IMG/VR virus record: IMGVR_UViG_3300033406_000242
Coordinates: 1 to 26,744 of that record
Origin: a virus
Taxonomy: Duplodnaviria; Caudoviricetes
DNA length: 26,744 nt
Direction: 5' to 3' (one strand)
The notes under the pieces are model-generated. The model was given only the letters and a program-made list of their open reading frames with translations, ran no database searches and was not told where the DNA came from. The position numbers were made by a program, and so were the translations under genes. Below are positions 5,246-23,505 of this stretch, piece by piece; position 1 is the first letter of the stretch; each line of letters starts with the position of its first letter.

Positions 5246-5341
5246 ATGGTCACCAAAATCCGCTCGTTGGGGTTAAACGGAATATCGGGCTACGAGGTCA
5301 CCGCCGAGTGCGATTTGTCCGGCGGCCTGCCCGCCTTTGAT
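5246..5341 (+). pseudogene. comM: 5' fragment (32 codons) of comM/yifB Mg-chelatase-like AAA+ ATPase, interrupted by the prophage
   Basis: ATG 5246 reads MVTKIRSLGLNGISGYEVTAECDLSGGLPAFD, the conserved YifB/ComM N-terminus (..G..G..V.VE.D...GLP.F.IVGL). The expected IVGL is replaced by AT-rich sequence that reads on to TAG at 5393-5395. Confidence 0.85.
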
Positions 5342-5370
5342 AAAGTAGTTAACAAATGCCGTCAGCAGAA
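5325..5370. other. attL junction (host comM / phage), crossover near TTTGAT-A at ~5340
   Basis: comM homology ends at GAT 5339-5341, GC content drops abruptly, and the 3' end of the serine integrase lies ~100 bp away. Confidence 0.75.
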
Positions 5371-9278: not shown

Positions 9279-9307
9279 TTGACAATTTCCATAATTTTTG
9301 ATACTAT
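9279..9307 (+). promoter_or_regulatory. Sigma-A promoter
   Basis: TTGACA-17 nt-TACTAT with an extended TG, upstream of the RHH gene. Confidence 0.75.
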
Positions 9308-9574: not shown

Positions 9575-9668
9575 AAAAAGGAACACAAAGGTAGTTATTG
9601 AATTGTAGTAGCAGAATTAAGCTGTTTTAGCTTAGTCTGTCATAATTCATAACTTTGTGTTCCTTTTT
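9575..9668 (+). other. 94-nt long imperfect hairpin with U-tail (structured RNA / attenuator candidate)
   Basis: AAAAAGGAACACAAAG pairs with CTTTGTGTTCCTTTTT (16 bp); inner GTTAT-TGAATT/AATTCATAAC, CAGA/TCTG and TAAGCT/AGCTTA stems. Confidence 0.6.
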
Positions 9669-9702: not shown

Positions 9703-10407
9703 ATGAAAAACTTAAAATTGTTTGCACTAGAACAGGAACTTAACACCTTGAGGGGTACAGATAACGCCGAGGCAGTCCTAGCCTTTGCAGGTAAGTTAGA
9801 TAAGTATGTAGGATTGAGTGACATACTTACAATTTCCGTAAGAGCAGCGCAGGTACTAGAAACCACCGGAGACCTTGAAGCCGTTAATGCTGACTTGGCA
9901 AACGTGCTTACAATGGTGCAGTTAAGGGAGCAAGAAATTGAAGAGTATGTAACCTCAGTAACACCCTTTTATGCAGAGGATGAGGTTAAAGCCTTGGTAG
10001 GACTACGATTTGAGGTTATGAGCAGCGTATACTACTACCTAAGCCAAACCGAAGAAGAAGTAATGTATGAGCAGTTGAGGGTACTAGAAAATGCAGCCAG
10101 AGCCGTAGACAAGATACTTGATAAAACGGGTAGAGCACTCACCCGCCGAGTAACCCGCAGAATAGATAAGATTGAGAGTGTTGGATATTTAAAGACCGTA
10201 AGTGACTGCAAGATTGATATAGTTAATGTTATTAACAAGCATCTACAAGGTTTCCCAGAGTATGTAACTCACGCCGAGGAGCTTGACCCTGACCTAGCAT
10301 TGGGTGACCAGTTTACTTTCTTAGATTTCGAGACTGAGATTGGAACTATACCAGCATCCACAGCACAGGCAAGAAAGTATGTTGACTTACAAGACATCCA
10401 CCTATAA
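9703..10407 (+). CDS. Hypothetical alpha-helical protein, 234 aa
   Basis: RBS GGAGG before ATG 9703. Confidence 0.8.
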   Translation: MKNLKLFALEQELNTLRGTDNAEAVLAFAGKLDKYVGLSDILTISVRAAQVLETTGDLEAVNADLANVLTMVQLREQEIEEYVTSVTPFYAEDEVKALVGLRFEVMSSVYYYLSQTEEEVMYEQLRVLENAARAVDKILDKTGRALTRRVTRRIDKIESVGYLKTVSDCKIDIVNVINKHLQGFPEYVTHAEELDPDLALGDQFTFLDFETEIGTIPASTAQARKYVDLQDIHL

Positions 10408-10409
10408 AG

Positions 10410-10465
10410 ACCGCTGATGAGCCTGTGAAACTCAGGCGAAACTACTCAGAAATGGGTAGTCCGGT
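10410..10465 (+). ncRNA. Type I hammerhead ribozyme
   Basis: Stem I ACCG/CGGT; core CTGATGA (10414-10420); stem II GCCTG/CAGGC; GAAA (10438-10441); stem III CTACTC/GGGTAG; GTC cleavage triplet at 10459-10461. Confidence 0.93.
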
Positions 10466-10515
10466 AGTTAGTTGAGAACAAAAATAAAATTATATGTCTG
10501 TAGGAGGACAATACA

Positions 10516-11373
10516 ATGAAAGCTTTGAATTTTGACCGAGTAGTAGCAGTTAGCACCACGGGTATAAAGGTAGACCTTACAAAGTACGAGCGCAAGCAGT
10601 TTAAGTTAGAGGATGACAGCATAAATGCTATCATCGACCTTAATCTGGACCTACTGGAACAGCAGGACTTGATAGAAGCCAATGTACGCCGTTGTAGTGC
10701 CACAGGTGCTTTTGTACGAGAGCATATAGCACACTTAAAGGCACTTAGGCAGCACGACCTAGACCAAGCGCAGGCAGAGGGTATACAGGCATCCAGAGTT
10801 CCGATTTCAGATGGTTTAAGGGCGTATATTGAACACTTTTGGGTTATAGGCTATACCAGTAGAGCTATCGAGGCCGCATTTGATGTTTCTGATAGTACGA
10901 TTTCCCGTTATACCAGAGAGCTAAGGACAGTCAACCGGGGTAAAAAGCATGGGCAAATTGTAGAGCTGCTGAAATCTTGGGAAGAGTTCAACATCACAGA
11001 GTATCAGCGTTGCCCGGGTACTGAGACCAGCTATACAGGTACTTCTAGTAATGCCCCATATACCGAAAATGAGATATACACCATAAAAACAATGGCATAT
11101 CAAGGGTATTCAGCCCAAGAGATTGCTAATGTAATTGACCGCAAGAGCCTTAACAACATCATAAAGCATATGAAGAAAGCCTTTACTAACAAGGAATATG
11201 CAGCCTTAAAGTGTATTCATTATAGTGAGACAGCAGCCTATGGTGGTGGATGGGGTGCCCGTGATTTACTGCAAAAGCGTGGAATGGAGTGGGTACTAGC
11301 CTACTATACCAGACACCTTGAATGCCTAGCTGCAAGGCAGACGCAACTAGAGGGTTTAGAACCCCTCTTTTAA
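10516..11373 (+). CDS. DNA-binding protein with two HTH motifs, 285 aa
   Basis: GYTSRAIEAAFDVSDSTISRY and YTENEI...QGYSAQEIANVIDRKS; RBS AGGAGG. Confidence 0.75.
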   Translation: MKALNFDRVVAVSTTGIKVDLTKYERKQFKLEDDSINAIIDLNLDLLEQQDLIEANVRRCSATGAFVREHIAHLKALRQHDLDQAQAEGIQASRVPISDGLRAYIEHFWVIGYTSRAIEAAFDVSDSTISRYTRELRTVNRGKKHGQIVELLKSWEEFNITEYQRCPGTETSYTGTSSNAPYTENEIYTIKTMAYQGYSAQEIANVIDRKSLNNIIKHMKKAFTNKEYAALKCIHYSETAAYGGGWGARDLLQKRGMEWVLAYYTRHLECLAARQTQLEGLEPLF

Positions 11374-11380
11374 AAGACTT

Positions 11381-11413
11381 AGGTTGTGCAGTTAGTATCT
11401 AACTGCACAACCT
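11381..11413 (+). other. Perfect 15-bp intergenic hairpin just before an RBS
   Basis: AGGTTGTGCAGTTAG-TAT-CTAACTGCACAACCT, no U-tract. Confidence 0.7.
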
Positions 11414-11430: not shown

Positions 11431-11910
11431 ATGATACAAGCAGAGAAAGCCTGTTTAAATTATGCGTTGAAAAACTGTATGCTGACTGAAACCTGTGAAA
11501 AACTGCGTAGTATCAATGACTACAAAAAGAGGGTTGCAACCTGCAACAGGTGCCACGACATACTGAAATACGACATTGTGACTGTATTACACAGCGTACG
11601 GCAGTCACAGCAGGATGCCCTACGCAGAGTAAAGATTTTGGAGCAAGAATTAGACGAGTTGAAATTAAAGGGTATTGAAAAACCGCAGGTTAAAGACTGG
11701 CGCTGGACAGAAGGCAAAACACTAGCATTAGAACCTCAGCAAATTCAAAGCATAGAAAAACTGCATTCAACAGGCTCTAGTATCCACGCAATTAGCGTGG
11801 AACTGGGTATAGACCGCCGGACTGTTGACAGGGTGTTGAAGAATGACTTTAAAAATGAACGCAGTAGAGCCAAGATAATAGAAGCCTTGAAAGATAAGGC
11901 TACTGAGTAA
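11431..11910 (+). CDS. Coiled-coil plus C-terminal HTH protein, 159 aa
   Basis: GSSIHAISVELGIDRRTVDRVL HTH; RBS AAGGAGG. Confidence 0.75.
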   Translation: MIQAEKACLNYALKNCMLTETCEKLRSINDYKKRVATCNRCHDILKYDIVTVLHSVRQSQQDALRRVKILEQELDELKLKGIEKPQVKDWRWTEGKTLALEPQQIQSIEKLHSTGSSIHAISVELGIDRRTVDRVLKNDFKNERSRAKIIEALKDKATE

Positions 11911-11939
11911 GATGGGTTAACCACCCCTCTTATTTTTTT
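11908..11939 (+). terminator. Probable intrinsic terminator
   Basis: TAAGATGGGT...ACCCCTCTTA followed by T7. Confidence 0.55.
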
Positions 11940-12149
11940 ATGCAAATTTTGCACCTTTTGACCACTTACACCCTAACCCACCTTACTTCCCCACCTGCGC
12001 ACAGTCTAGCACCTGTGCGCCCGCTTACCAGCACCCGCTACTGCCCTGCACCCGCAATTTTATAATTTTAGATAATTTTATGAGTAGTGGACAGTTGTTG
12101 GTTGTATAGCTACAGAAAAAATTAGTCTAAGCATAAAGAGGTGATTTTT

Positions 12150-12632: not shown

Positions 12633-12888
12633 TGGTATTAGAGCCGAGTATGCAGCCTTAAAAGAGCGTGCAGAGGCACTTGATGCAAGTATAAAAGTTT
12701 TTAAGCACTTAGCCAAAAATCAAGGTTTAGTAAGTGATGACGCAGAATTTGCCGAGCGTGTAGCCTTTGACATTGACCCTAAAACAGGTGCAATCACTTG
12801 GCTTTTACTTAGACCGGGTAAACAGCACGACCGTAACCCCTTTGGAGGCTATGGTGTGCAGACCTACGATGCCTACAAGATAGACTGA
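12613..12888 (+). CDS. Hypothetical protein, 91 aa
   Basis: RBS GGAGG before ATG 12613. Confidence 0.75.
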   Translation: MRLIKLDGIRAEYAALKERAEALDASIKVFKHLAKNQGLVSDDAEFAERVAFDIDPKTGAITWLLLRPGKQHDRNPFGGYGVQTYDAYKID

Positions 12889-12910
12889 GAACAGAAAGTG
12901 GGTAAGAAAA

Positions 12911-13045
12911 ATGTCCGTAAAATACAAAAATCTTTGTGAGAAGCTTGCCTATGTAGTAGACAGGCTTACAAGCAAAGATATAAAAGCAGCCTATATAAAA
13001 GCAGCCTATATAAAAGCAAAAGAACAGAAAGTGGGTATAAAATAA
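12911..13045 (+). CDS. Basic 44-aa mini-protein with IKAAY repeats (not in ORF track)
   Basis: MSVKYKNLCEKLAYVVDRLTSKDIKAAYIKAAYIKAKEQKVGIK*; its stop overlaps the amidase ATG (TAATG). Confidence 0.5.
   Translation: MSVKYKNLCEKLAYVVDRLTSKDIKAAYIKAAYIKAKEQKVGIK
12978..13018 (+). repeat. 15-bp tandem repeat ATATAAAAGCAGCCT, ~2.7 copies
   Basis: Read directly from the sequence. Confidence 0.9.
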
Positions 13046-13896
13046 TGGTATTAAAACAACTTTTCCTAACTAAAAACGACTGTTATAAAGCAGGAAAAAC
13101 GATAGTGCCTAAGGGCATTATGGTGCATAGCACAGGTTCAGAAAATCCTTGGATAAAACGCTATGTAGGACCAGATGATGGGTTGCTTGGTGTAAACTCA
13201 AACGGAAACCACTGGAATTGCAGTGGTTTAAGCGTTTGTGTACACGCCTTTATAGGTAAGCTAAAAGATGGCTCAATAGCCACATATCAGACTTTGCCTT
13301 GGACTTATAGAGGTTGGCACGCCGGAGGCTCTGCAAATAACACCCACATCGGGTTTGAGATATGTGAGGACGGACTTTCTGATGCTGACTACTTTGCTAA
13401 GGTCTACAACGAGGCCATAGAACTTAGCACCTATCTTTGCTATACATACAGCATAAACCCTTTAACGGGTATTATCTGCCACTCTGAGGGTTACACCAAA
13501 GGTATAGCATCCGGTCACGCTGATGTGATGCATTGGTTTCCAAAGCACGGTAAGAGTATGGATACTTTCCGTGCTGAGGTTAATACAGCACTAACAAAAT
13601 TAAAGGCTGCAGAAGCCACAAAAGTAGAAGCTTTAAGAATAGTTAAGTTAGTAGCATCATCCCCTGCTGATTGGTCTAACGCCCTCTCAGGCAGTTTAGA
13701 GGGTATATGGGCTTACTTCCCTGCTCTGATAGTAAAGACATACAATCAGCGTGGTAAGACCACCTTAGGCTATGTAGAGGTGTTAAAACAGGTCACAAGC
13801 AGTCCTGTTGAGTGGCAGACTGCCATAGCTGCACAAAAAACGGGTATCTTGCAGTATACAGGTGCTTTACTGGAAAAAATCTATAAGTTGTCCTAA
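13045..13896 (+). CDS. Endolysin, N-acetylmuramoyl-L-alanine amidase (Amidase_2), 283 aa
   Basis: IMVHST, VHAFI, WHAG, IGFEICE and ICHSE zinc-amidase motifs; C-terminal repeat domain. Confidence 0.9.
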   Translation: MVLKQLFLTKNDCYKAGKTIVPKGIMVHSTGSENPWIKRYVGPDDGLLGVNSNGNHWNCSGLSVCVHAFIGKLKDGSIATYQTLPWTYRGWHAGGSANNTHIGFEICEDGLSDADYFAKVYNEAIELSTYLCYTYSINPLTGIICHSEGYTKGIASGHADVMHWFPKHGKSMDTFRAEVNTALTKLKAAEATKVEALRIVKLVASSPADWSNALSGSLEGIWAYFPALIVKTYNQRGKTTLGYVEVLKQVTSSPVEWQTAIAAQKTGILQYTGALLEKIYKLS

Positions 13897-15362: not shown

Positions 15363-15821
15363 ATGATAAATGAAGAATTAAATAAACAATATAATGTATA
15401 TGATGAAGCTATAGTTTTTAAATCAGTATTTGGCATAGACGTTGATTCTGACGTATATAAAGTAGCTACTTCTTTACGTGAAATGGTTAATAAACAAGTT
15501 GAGGAATATTCAAAAATTCTATTTCTTGAAAAATGGTTAGAATTGTCCGAACAAGAAAAGGAAGAAATTATAACTAAGGTTATTTTTGAACTACCATCTG
15601 AATTACATAAATATTTTTCAAAATCAATAGAAGAATCATTGGGTATTGTGTTAGATGCTGTTAAGTTTATTACATACTATATACATACAAACCCACTAAT
15701 TTTGAATAAAACAGAAACAAACTGTATGCATAGTTTATGTTTAGAAGTAATTAAATATAAGCAAAATCCTAACTATTATGAAGAAAAACCGGAGTTTGAA
15801 CGCTCTTACCTTTCATATTAA
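15363..15821 (+). CDS. Hypothetical protein, 152 aa (AT-rich cassette)
   Basis: RBS GAGGAGG. Confidence 0.75.
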   Translation: MINEELNKQYNVYDEAIVFKSVFGIDVDSDVYKVATSLREMVNKQVEEYSKILFLEKWLELSEQEKEEIITKVIFELPSELHKYFSKSIEESLGIVLDAVKFITYYIHTNPLILNKTETNCMHSLCLEVIKYKQNPNYYEEKPEFERSYLSY

Positions 15822-18378: not shown

Positions 18379-19965
18379 ATGAGTTTAGCTTACATAGGCG
18401 CCGAAGGTAAGAAATCAAATGCTCAGATTTTAAAAGAAGACGATTTCAGTATATATAGCAAGGATGTTTGTGTATGGACTGGTGAGTTTCCGTATAAAAC
18501 TGGTGACCAATTTCCAACAAAAGCTATTAAGGATAGAGCTAATCAGTATAAAACAAATGAAGCCCTTTATGACTGCAATTATGGTCAAATCTATCCTAAT
18601 GTCATTAGCTTTATGGATGTATATAAAAAGGCTTTATCTAACTGGCCAATACTTCAACTACTACCTAACCTCCCCGAGTATAGAGAAATTACGGAAACCA
18701 ATGTAGACCTAATTGCAGCAAAGATGCCAAAAATAGATGGTGAAAAAGCTGAGATAGATTCTTTGAATAAGAGCATAATGGGTAGTAATTTTGGTATATC
18801 GTGGCAAGCAGTAGTCAGAAATTCACAGCAAAAGGGTAATTCAGTAAAAAAGCTAACCATAGTTAATGATAAGCCTAAGATAGTTGAAATGCCTGTGAAA
18901 TGCTGGGAGCCTTGGGTAAACAAATTTGATTCAACTGAAATAGAGTGCAACATCTTTTTTAACATTTATCAAAAAGATAAAGCAAAATTCATTGAGTTTG
19001 TTAGCTATTTACAAGATGGTACAGTTGAGAACCGCACTTTTAATTATGGTTCAGGGCGTATAGGAACACAGATTGGTGACATTGAAGTACATAAAGCTTT
19101 TGAGAATGCTGATATTTCCCCAATTGTTGTATTTACTGGTTGCCCTGATGATACCGGGGTACTTGGAAAAGACCTTTACCGCTACTGGGAAGCCTCCATA
19201 GCTGCCTCAATTCGTGCTTTTGGTACACTTCTTCAACTGCTTGAACGCACAAAGGAAATCACTAAAGTGATGCCCGCTAGTGCAACAACCCGTGATGAAT
19301 CTACTGGTGCAACCTATGATACAGGCTCGGACACTATATTGTATGACGATATAGAACACCCCGCTAAGGTTGAATATGTATCACCAACACTAGATGTAGC
19401 AGGTGCACTAAGCATATATGAACTTACAGTTAAGAGGGTAAGCCGTGATACATCCTTAGCTTTTGCAATGTTTGACACAAAAGAGTTAGGCAACAATGCA
19501 AGCGGTAAAGCTTTAAAGGTTGCAATGTACAAGTCAGAATTAAGGGCAAAATCTTTTATTACTTCTCTAATGGGTAGTCTTAAAGAACTCATATATAAGT
19601 TTGCAATTCTAAGTGGTATTGACATTGAATTATCTGATTTTTCCGTAATTTGTGATTTTGGATTTATCTCAGATGCAGAGGAAGAAACAAGAATTGTTCA
19701 GTCAAGGTTAGGAAATCAGCCAACAATGACACTTGAAGAAGCTATTGCAAAACTGGATGACTTAACTACATATGAGGCACAGAAAAAAGCTAATTCAATC
19801 CGTGGTGTACAAAGTACCGAGGACCTAGAAGATAAGCCAATAACACCAGTTGTAACATTAGAAGTAGCATTAACACAAGGTTCTGAGGAAGTAGATAAGG
19901 ACAATCAGTATGTAACTGGTGATGTTAATGCGGTATATCCCTTAGGAGGTGATGGCATTGGGTAA
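18379..19965 (+). CDS. Portal protein (SPP1/A118-like), 528 aa
   Basis: Position after TerL, size, ASGKALK motif and acidic tail. Confidence 0.8.
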   Translation: MSLAYIGAEGKKSNAQILKEDDFSIYSKDVCVWTGEFPYKTGDQFPTKAIKDRANQYKTNEALYDCNYGQIYPNVISFMDVYKKALSNWPILQLLPNLPEYREITETNVDLIAAKMPKIDGEKAEIDSLNKSIMGSNFGISWQAVVRNSQQKGNSVKKLTIVNDKPKIVEMPVKCWEPWVNKFDSTEIECNIFFNIYQKDKAKFIEFVSYLQDGTVENRTFNYGSGRIGTQIGDIEVHKAFENADISPIVVFTGCPDDTGVLGKDLYRYWEASIAASIRAFGTLLQLLERTKEITKVMPASATTRDESTGATYDTGSDTILYDDIEHPAKVEYVSPTLDVAGALSIYELTVKRVSRDTSLAFAMFDTKELGNNASGKALKVAMYKSELRAKSFITSLMGSLKELIYKFAILSGIDIELSDFSVICDFGFISDAEEETRIVQSRLGNQPTMTLEEAIAKLDDLTTYEAQKKANSIRGVQSTEDLEDKPITPVVTLEVALTQGSEEVDKDNQYVTGDVNAVYPLGGDGIG

Positions 19966-22980: not shown

Positions 22981-23505
22981 ATGGTTTCAAAAATTTGTGA
23001 TGGATGCTTGGCAGTACTTGCAGTCATAGGAGCCGGGTTAGGCTGGTTCGTTGGTGGATTTGATGGCAGTATAATAGCACTTCTGATAATGATGTTAGTA
23101 GATATTGTCCTTGGTGTAATGTATGCCTTTCTTACAAAGACGCTCAGTAAGAAAAAAGCATTTAGAGGTGGTCTTAAAAAGGTTGCAATCTTTACATTAG
23201 TTGGTGTTTGCTCAATATTGGACCGTTATGTACTTAATACAGGTGACACACTAAAAGTGTGCTTTACCTTTTATTCAGTTGGTGTAGAGGGTTTGAGCAT
23301 TATAGGACACGCTGAGGATTTGGGTATACCTATCCCCGCAAAAATAAAAGAAGCTCTTGAAAAATTAAAAGAAGAAAATGAAACTACCACAACTACTACA
23401 TTATCTGATACTGCTGATACAGTTGTAGACGAGGTTACAGAGGTTGTAGAGGAAGATACCACTACTGATACCACAGCCACAGATGACAGCACAGCAGCAC
23501 AGTAA
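22981..23505 (+). CDS. Holin (phage holin family 4 / TcdE-like) with acidic Thr-rich tail, 174 aa
   Basis: GG.D...ALL.MM.VD...G, G..KK and EGLSII.H...LGIPIP motifs; 3 TM segments. Confidence 0.85.
   Translation: MVSKICDGCLAVLAVIGAGLGWFVGGFDGSIIALLIMMLVDIVLGVMYAFLTKTLSKKKAFRGGLKKVAIFTLVGVCSILDRYVLNTGDTLKVCFTFYSVGVEGLSIIGHAEDLGIPIPAKIKEALEKLKEENETTTTTTLSDTADTVVDEVTEVVEEDTTTDTTATDDSTAAQ

What the first reader, a model, noticed from the sequence alone, without database searches (positions are those of the whole stretch)
10402..10471. Intact hammerhead ribozyme splitting a prophage operon
Seen: every catalytic-core element of a type I hammerhead is present (ACCG-CUGAUGA-GCCUG[UGAAACU]CAGGC-GAAA-CUACUC[AGAAAU]GGGUAG-UC^CGGU). 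It begins 3 nt after the stop of the 234-aa ORF, and the predicted cut after C10461 lies ~40 nt upstream of the AGGAGG of the double-HTH gene. Established: hammerheads occur in Firmicute phage intergenic regions, and their role there is largely unknown. Inference: self-cleavage separates the RHH/234-aa mRNA from the two HTH regulator genes and gives the latter a 5'-OH end, i.e. a protein-free processing step in the phage regulatory operon. Any extended stem I would overlap the upstream stop codon, so terminating ribosomes could modulate cleavage.
Basis: partly seen in the sequence, partly recalled or inferred. Interest (0 to 1): 0.85.

Follow-up and report, generated by a model that had tools for sequence, protein, structure and literature searches.

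The report
Prophage hammerhead ribozyme abutting stop codon
A complete self-cutting 'hammerhead' RNA motif sits between two genes of a bacterial prophage, directly behind the first gene's stop codon, where it likely cuts the phage message in two; it is a solid new example of a kind known in phages since 2011.

Summary
The motif is real. A canonical type I hammerhead lies at 10410-10465 (+): all core bases, stems of 4/5/8 bp, GUC cut triplet. None of 1000 shuffles matched it. A model built from 23 relatives, without the window, scores it 57.8 bits. It reaches no Rfam cut-off.

It belongs to a widespread phage subfamily. The upstream ORF stops 5-12 nt before the core in 38 of 78 viral and 33 of 61 genome clusters. 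Here the UAA of the 234-aa gene overlaps the conserved unpaired A-rich 5' flank.

Most likely role (inferred, untested): cleavage splits the operon mRNA, as Perreault 2011 proposed. In a probable Clostridia host the 5'-OH end would be open to RNase J, not protected. Ribosome gating is possible: this copy has predicted competing helices, but they are not conserved in the family. The 'RHH' label is unconfirmed. No close relative or RNA run was listed.

This scan noted the same stop-codon layout on other genomes. Verdict: new member of a known kind.

The parts
10410..10465 (+). Type I hammerhead ribozyme: P1 4 bp, core CUGAUGA, P2 5 bp with 7-nt loop, GAAA, P3 8 bp with GAAA tetraloop, GUC triplet
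10461..10462 (+). Predicted cleavage site (3' of C17 = 10461); would give a 2',3'-cyclic phosphate upstream and a 5'-OH downstream
   Evidence: Position from the consensus; chemistry from PMC6155905 passages; not tested
10403..10409 (+). Unpaired A-rich 5' flank (UAUAAAG) holding the UAA stop (10405-07); likely the tertiary partner of loop 2
   Evidence: A at -6 in 67 of 78 viral and 54 of 61 genome clusters, with or without an abutting ORF; same UAUAAA is loop 1 of a type III relative, L017/L218; the contact itself is inferred
9703..10407 (+). 234-aa gene of unknown function upstream; its last 24 residues lie beyond the last invariant residue and run 15-18 residues longer than in its two homologues
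   Evidence: Two homologues at 33% identity; no informative family hit
10364..10370 (+). 7-nt coding stretch complementary to the P2 5' strand and loop (10421-27); predicted competitor on naked nascent RNA
   Evidence: Folding model only; not enriched in the family after composition control
10381..10396 (+). Last codons of the 234-aa gene, predicted to pair with the leader and Shine-Dalgarno region 10494-10509 of the next gene
   Evidence: -15.4 kcal/mol duplex; 24 of 4225 control windows as strong; not a family trait, p 0.67-0.71
10462..10515 (+). 54-nt A-rich leader of the predicted 3' product, with AGGAGG at 10502-07
10516..11373 (+). 285-aa HTH-containing protein, first gene of the predicted 3' product
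   Evidence: Pfam HTH_38 E 1e-6; PHROG transcription regulator E 3e-5; no sequence homologue found
11431..11910 (+). 159-aa protein with a C-terminal HTH-like region
   Evidence: Pfam HTH_23/HTH_38 below cut-off; PHROG HTH hits
9575..9668 (+). Long irregular hairpin followed by a U-run between the 59-aa and 234-aa genes; possible terminator or RNase III site that decides whether transcription reaches the ribozyme
   Evidence: z -6.4, 0 of 200 shuffles; arms; function inferred
9279..9307 (+). Best sigma-70-like promoter candidate upstream of the gene run
   Evidence: 10 of 12 consensus matches with TG; promoter-like sites are not enriched over shuffles in the region (9 against 10.6)

Best explanation
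A canonical type I hammerhead motif fills the gap between the 234-aa gene and the 285-aa HTH gene of a prophage, and it likely folds and cuts itself after C10461 soon after transcription, largely without a switch, splitting the operon mRNA in two. The upstream piece would keep its ORF, stop codon and the P2 and P3 hairpins with a cyclic-phosphate end (inferred to slow 3' decay). The downstream piece would start with a 5'-OH and an A-rich 40-nt stretch before a strong Shine-Dalgarno; in a probable Clostridia host it would be open to RNase J up to a bound ribosome. The two halves would then have separate lifetimes and translation rates. The overlap with the stop codon most likely reflects a compact module whose conserved 5' (U)AA flank doubles as the stop. 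Shown: motif, position, family layout. Inferred: transcription, cleavage, fate of the products.
For: All core bases and three stems are present; 0 of 1000 shuffles; 57.8 bits under an independent family model. Predicted P1 probability in context is 0.68, higher than in 125 of 139 relatives. The family layout is stop-ribozyme-start: cut-to-ATG median 38-39 nt; both ends tight in 37 of 78 viral clusters. Several relatives have two to five copies between consecutive genes. Print: clustered prophage hammerheads cleaved in vitro, those of one cluster also in E. coli, and 14 of 18 consensus hammerheads were active (PMC3088659). A 5'-OH ribozyme product is an RNase J1 substrate, and a strong SD stabilises Bacillus mRNA (PMC3997798; PMC11780869). 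In B. subtilis, terminators fold a few nt behind stop codons because RNA polymerase outruns ribosomes (PMC7858274). The A-rich flank is conserved even where no ORF ends there (A at -6 in 23 of 27).
Against: No expression or cleavage data for this copy. P1 has only 4 standard pairs (4 bp in 7 of 78 relatives; most have 5-6). On naked nascent RNA the folding model often prefers a misfold with 10364-70 (P1 0.01-0.28 for 5' ends at 10300-10360), which argues against simple constitutive cutting. The hairpin plus U-run at 9575-9668 may stop transcription upstream. Stop abutment is not clearly commoner in Bacillota (25 of 36) than in other taxa (13 of 23; Fisher p 0.41), so runaway transcription alone does not explain it. 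Runaway transcription and RNase J behaviour are carried over from Bacillus.
Confidence: 0.55

Rival explanations
1. Translation-gated cleavage. The non-conserved tail of the 234-aa ORF holds the ribozyme misfolded (10364-70 with P2) and masks the next Shine-Dalgarno (10381-96). A ribosome entering the last ~15 codons frees the fold, a ribosome at the stop blocks P1, and cleavage frees the HTH gene's start site from translational coupling.
For: Folding model: masking 10300-10377/10395 raises P1 to 0.56-0.78 on nascent RNA; masking to 10416 gives 0. SD unpaired 0.33 in the precursor against 0.67 in the 3' product. The anti-SD duplex is in the top 0.6% of control windows. Both helices lie in the tail absent from the two homologues. 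The stop is in frame with the flank UAA in 25 of 31 and 14 of 15 family cases.
Against: Neither helix is a family trait (anti-SD p 0.67-0.71; anti-P2 p 0.56 against shuffled own sequence). One of 19 other prophage start sites has a stronger upstream duplex. Predictions swing with the boundaries chosen (P1 from 0.03 to 0.78). No orthologous locus was available for covariation.
Confidence: 0.2
2. A leftover or slow copy. The module was inherited with a shuffled phage gene cassette, cuts slowly or rarely in vivo, and has little effect on expression.
For: Short P1 with a G-A mismatch at pair 5; predicted misfolds; a single copy in the window; 4 of 18 consensus hammerheads were inactive in PMC3088659.
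Against: All core bases and 17 standard pairs are intact, with the family loop 2 and 5' flank; the flanking ORFs are open with good SD sequences.
Confidence: 0.17
3. The cut mainly defines or stabilises the 5' end of the HTH mRNA, as an insulator (as 5'-OH ends do against RNase E in E. coli; recalled), rather than exposing it to decay.
For: A conserved short distance from cut to start codon (median 38-39 nt). A halovirus transcript 5' end maps within 3 nt of a hammerhead cut (PMC3088659).
Against: In Bacillus a ribozyme-made 5'-OH end is degraded by RNase J1; the leader here has no protective 5' hairpin (z +0.5).
Confidence: 0.08

Closest known systems
Hammerhead ribozymes in prophage and phage intergenic regions (Perreault et al. 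2011, PMC3088659; passages and Discussion part 1 of 2 read)
   Same: Consensus core, intergenic position in a prophage that carries an integrase gene, small unknown neighbours, proposed processing of polycistronic RNA.
   Different: A single copy rather than a cluster; no supported pseudoknot; the term 'stop codon' does not occur in that paper's main text, whereas the stop overlaps the 5' flank here and in about half of the subfamily.
Rfam RAGATH-1-hammerhead (RF03152)
   Same: Type I topology, identical core, same CUAUAAA run just 5' of P1.
   Different: 28.1 bits against a cut-off of 56.3; the model shows a 1-bp P2 and an upstream hairpin, whereas this copy has a 5-bp P2 with a UGAAACU loop.
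Rfam Hammerhead_1 (RF00163) and Hammerhead_3 (RF00008)
   Same: Catalytic core; loop 2 starting UGAAA matches the Hammerhead_3 consensus.
   Different: Below cut-off here (Hammerhead_3: 20.2 against 48.5, wrong topology). No hammerhead match in 20 relative loci reached a gathering score either (best Hammerhead_1 31.2 against 34), so this subfamily is poorly modelled by Rfam.
glmS ribozyme of Bacillus (PMC3997798, PMC11780869; passages)
   Same: Self-cleavage upstream of a gene leaving a 5'-OH end in a Gram-positive cell.
   Different: A different fold, metabolite-triggered, in a 5' UTR; a model for product fate only.

Membership tests
Hammerhead ribozyme class | Conserved core CUGANGA ... GAAA ... 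NUH | tested here: met
Hammerhead ribozyme class | Three helices around the core, with the G-C pair opening P2 and A15.1-U16.1 opening P3 | tested here: met
   P1 4, P2 5, P3 8 bp. In 23 relatives 12 of 16 pairs change on both sides (those sequences were preselected for pairing)
Hammerhead ribozyme class | Site-specific self-cleavage | not testable with these tools
   needs in vitro transcription or end mapping
Type I topology | Stem I open, stems II and III closed by loops | tested here: met
Natural (fast) hammerheads | Tertiary contact between stem I periphery and loop II | tested here: inconclusive
   A conserved unpaired A at -6/-7 of the core suggests one. A 4-bp loop II/3'-tail pseudoknot possible in this copy is not supported in the family (p 0.16-0.58)
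Rfam RAGATH-1-hammerhead RF03152 | Score at or above gathering threshold 56.3 | tested here: not met
   28.1 bits
Rfam Hammerhead_1 RF00163 and Hammerhead_3 RF00008 | Score at or above gathering threshold | tested here: not met
   No gathering-level hit; Hammerhead_3 20.2 of 48.5
Phage type I subfamily with UGARA loop II (defined here) | Score under a model built without the window | tested here: met
   57.8 bits; 52 matches in 35 relative loci score 27-74 bits
Prophage mRNA-processing hammerheads (Perreault 2011) | Intergenic, co-oriented with flanking phage genes | tested here: met
Prophage mRNA-processing hammerheads (Perreault 2011) | Transcribed and cleaved within a polycistronic RNA | not testable with these tools
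   no RNA data could be laid on the locus
   No family hit; no homologue; single-sequence model is one helix, pTM 0.37, uninformative

The most novel reading that the evidence does not exclude
Phage hammerheads of this subfamily use the upstream gene's stop codon as part of their own folding element, so the ribosome gates cleavage. In this copy the extra C-terminal codons of the 234-aa gene act as an RNA switch that holds the ribozyme off and hides the HTH gene's Shine-Dalgarno until a ribosome passes: a translation-sensing ribozyme in a prophage regulatory operon.
Probability: 0.15. Interest if true: 0.72.

Novelty: new member of a known kind. Interest (0 to 1): 0.33.

Why it matters
Why bacteria and phages carry self-cleaving ribozymes between genes is still open (PMC6765202 passages). 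This copy does not answer it. It does offer a compact test case in front of two HTH genes. The subfamily statistics give a concrete handle: the upstream stop codon sits in the ribozyme's 5' flank in about half of 139 clusters. One reporter series can tell constitutive mRNA splitting from ribosome-gated cutting. Rfam also misses this large subfamily at its cut-offs, so annotation pipelines leave these elements unmarked.

Tried and rejected
Orthologous loci: none in viral contigs for either flanking protein or for the two distant homologues and their alignment. One weak match with an internal stop in 401 genomes had no hammerhead nearby. A near-exact ribozyme pattern in metagenome contigs returned only the window's own record (L367). 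A phage blastn gave only short partial hits. Conservation in related prophages is therefore untested.

Sequencing runs: none was listed; this is no evidence either way.

Second ribozyme in the window: a loose descriptor hit at 19145 (2-bp P2, inside a coding region) and weak candidates at 15370 and about 25370 were rejected; the family model finds one hit only.

Loop II/3'-tail pseudoknot: rejected as a family feature. Extended stem I: not conserved. Family-wide anti-SD pairing: rejected. Family-wide upstream anti-ribozyme pairing looked significant against mismatched loci but vanished against shuffled own sequence (p 0.56) and a farther upstream control (p 0.20). A Bacillota bias in stop abutment: not found (taxa assigned by me from record titles, 2 unassigned).

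The first pattern scan required TATAAA upstream, so it was not used for the stop-codon counts.

Protein function: the Atlas gave no usable hit for the 234-aa protein and only HTH-type leads under 0.9 for the 285-aa protein. A fold prediction for the 234-aa alignment had not finished, so no fold search was run.

Papers: two further bacterial-hammerhead papers were not held. No supplements were read. Any of these may already note the stop-codon overlap.

Full report
Observation. It has P1 of 4 bp, the core CUGAUGA, P2 of 5 bp with loop UGAAACU, GAAA, P3 of 8 bp with a GAAA tetraloop, and a GUC triplet with the predicted cut after C10461. A descriptor scan found this hit, and 0 of 1000 dinucleotide shuffles of the window gave one as complete (42 of 1000 gave a loose one). 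The 56-mer folds as a hammerhead at minimum energy. Rfam reports nothing at gathering score. At relaxed thresholds the best match is RAGATH-1-hammerhead, 28.1 bits against 56.3. A covariance model of 23 relatives, window excluded, scores it 57.8 bits, with the next hit at 12.1. In 35 relative loci, 52 matches score 27-74 bits (the top one was in the training set). It is the only hammerhead found in the window.

Setting. The window is a virus record. Host-like genes of 55% GC (PFOR, dCTP deaminase) are followed by a serine recombinase, the gene run in question, an amidase, terminase, scaffold and holin. The amidase is closest (70-73%) to endolysins of Oscillospiraceae, Oscillospirales and unassigned gut phages, so a Clostridia host is likely but not shown. 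On the + strand a promoter-like site at 9279-9307 (such sites are not enriched over shuffles) precedes genes of 59, 234, 285 and 159 aa. The last two have HTH signal. The 59-aa 'RHH' label could not be confirmed. The 234-aa protein has two homologues at 33% identity, so it is probably a real gene. It runs 24 residues past the last invariant residue, against 6 and 9 in the homologues. The other junctions also carry structure: a long hairpin with a U-run at 9575-9668 (z -6.4) and a 15-bp hairpin at 11381-11413 (z -4.8).

The subfamily. Of 109 distinct viral matches, 95 fold as type I, 5 as type III and 9 as neither. Of these 95, 91 had P2 of at least 4 bp and at least 240 nt upstream, giving 78 clusters. 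The longest upstream ORF of 50 codons or more stops at -12 to -5 of the core in 38 clusters, at the core's own UGA in 11, at -120 to -13 in 18, and is absent in 11. The background expectation for an 8-nt window is about 0.03. In the genome set, 83 of 120 distinct matches were type I, 78 had enough flank, and 61 of 65 clusters were not shared with the viral set; the counts are 33, 5, 18 and 5. Where a UAA at -9 to -7 is reached by a long ORF, that ORF is in frame with it in 25 of 31 and 14 of 15 cases; an antisense control gives 1 of 78 and 1 of 61. Of 11 further copies found by the model and not by the pattern, 5 have an ORF of 40 codons or more stopping at -12 to -5. The window's UAA is at -9. 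The median distance from cut to next ATG is 38-39 nt (65 of 78 and 50 of 61 had one within 200 nt); here it is 54. Neighbours vary: 11 of 64 upstream and 17 of 67 downstream ORFs (from loci with at least 600 nt upstream) match PHROGs. They include anti-restriction, Gam-like, primase, repressor and integrase families, and several upstream matches run almost to the stop.

What the stop overlap means. The adenine at -6 is conserved whether an ORF ends in the flank (35 of 41), ends in the core (9 of 10) or is absent (23 of 27). UAA at -9 to -7 is present in 14 of 27 clusters with no abutting ORF, against a background of 8%. In a type III relative the same UAUAAA forms loop 1 (L017/L218). The flank is therefore most likely a structural element of the ribozyme, the partner of loop 2 (such contacts: PMC6155905 passages), that also serves as the stop codon. 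Stem I is not extended over the stop in the family. A ribosome ending at 10405 would cover the flank and P1 (footprint size recalled), and the model then gives P1 = 0. Whether that matters depends on timing. In B. subtilis RNA polymerase outruns ribosomes and terminators sit a few bases behind stops (PMC7858274 passages). But abutment is not clearly commoner in Bacillota than elsewhere (25 of 36 against 13 of 23, p 0.41). Ribozyme junctions are about one ribozyme longer than other junctions (median 97 nt, n 77, against 52 nt, n 182; crude ORF calls), which fits simple compaction.

Features of this copy. P1 has 4 standard pairs; 7 of 78 relatives share that. In contexts reaching the SD the hammerhead is predicted at about 0.68, enclosed by a helix between the last codons (10381-96) and the SD region. 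SD bases are unpaired 0.33 of the time in the precursor and 0.67 in the 3' product. That duplex (-15.4 kcal/mol) is matched by 24 of 4225 control windows and beaten by 1 of 19 other valid start sites (one further control position was not a start codon). It is not a family trait. On nascent RNA, 10364-70 competes for P2, and masking it restores the fold. Predictions swing from 0.03 to 0.78 with the boundaries, and the effect is not enriched in the family after composition control. Both helices lie in the C-terminal tail missing from the homologues. These are leads only.

Most likely working. Shown: motif, position, family layout. Inferred: the RNA is made, folds and cuts after C10461, splitting the message. 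The upstream half keeps two hairpins and a cyclic phosphate. The downstream half has a 5'-OH and a weakly structured leader. In Bacillus such an end is degraded by RNase J1, while a strong SD protects (PMC3997798 and PMC11780869 passages). I give this 0.55, translation gating 0.2, a slow or leftover copy 0.17, and a stabilising role 0.08. As a prior for activity, 14 of 18 consensus hammerheads cleaved in PMC3088659.

Known and new. Perreault et al. 2011 describe hammerheads flanking genes in prophages, propose processing into operon- or gene-length mRNAs, and show cleavage for clusters including one from Clostridium scindens (passages and Discussion part 1 of 2). Reviews of 2017 and 2019 call the bacterial role open (PMC6155905, PMC6765202; passages). 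I did not find the stop-codon overlap described in print. 'Stop codon' is absent from the main text of PMC3088659, and the searches (listings and abstract starts; passages of PMC13725137 and one 2026 preprint) showed nothing on it. Two relevant papers were not held and no supplements were read, so this is a weak negative. Earlier notes of this scan report the same layout on other genomes (consulted after my counts were made); none exists for this genome or sequence.

Verdict. A real, canonical type I hammerhead and a new member of a known kind. Its subfamily is under Rfam's cut-offs (no hammerhead match at gathering score in 20 loci) and shows a strong stop-codon overlap whose meaning is untested. 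Interest 0.33.

Noticed in passing
window 5246-5345: A short ORF start that by eye resembles the N-terminus of ComM/YifB (recalled) and turns into AT-rich sequence beside the serine recombinase: probably the left attachment site inside comM. Pfam, NCBIfam and PDB searches gave no hit for the 32-36 aa piece.
   Followed up: partly
window 9575-9668 (+): Irregular hairpin of about 40 bp with an A-run before and a U-run after, z -6.4; possible terminator or RNase III site between the 59-aa and 234-aa genes.
   Followed up: partly
window 11381-11413: 15-bp hairpin between the two HTH genes, just before the SD of the second; scored as a minus-strand terminator. It could also be an operator or a stabiliser.
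   Followed up: partly
window 11905-11990: By eye a hairpin plus U-run right behind the 159-aa gene's stop; the folding tool prefers a longer-range pairing (z -3.2). A C-rich stretch follows.
   Followed up: no
window 12875-12909 and 13008-13042: A repeated stretch (about 20 nt nearly identical, 133 nt apart) upstream of the amidase gene.
   Followed up: no
window 13045-13896 and 22981-23505: The amidase lies before the terminase module, about 10 kb from the holin, an unusual order.
   Followed up: no
L148 (258-2669), L122, L193, L209, L146, L266: Clusters of three to five type I hammerheads within about 3 kb.
   Followed up: partly
L227:538-606 and L243:50-114: An HDV-like ribozyme above its Rfam cut-off and a type II hammerhead just under it, each within 300 nt of a type I hammerhead.
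   Followed up: no
L270:1959-2501: A Mu Gam-like gene that reads through stem I and ends at the UGA of the catalytic core; 16 of 139 clusters end their longest upstream ORF there.
   Followed up: partly
L259, L334, L354: The same hammerhead subfamily occurs in contigs labelled as archaeal genomes (Thaumarchaeota, Bathyarchaeota).
   Followed up: no
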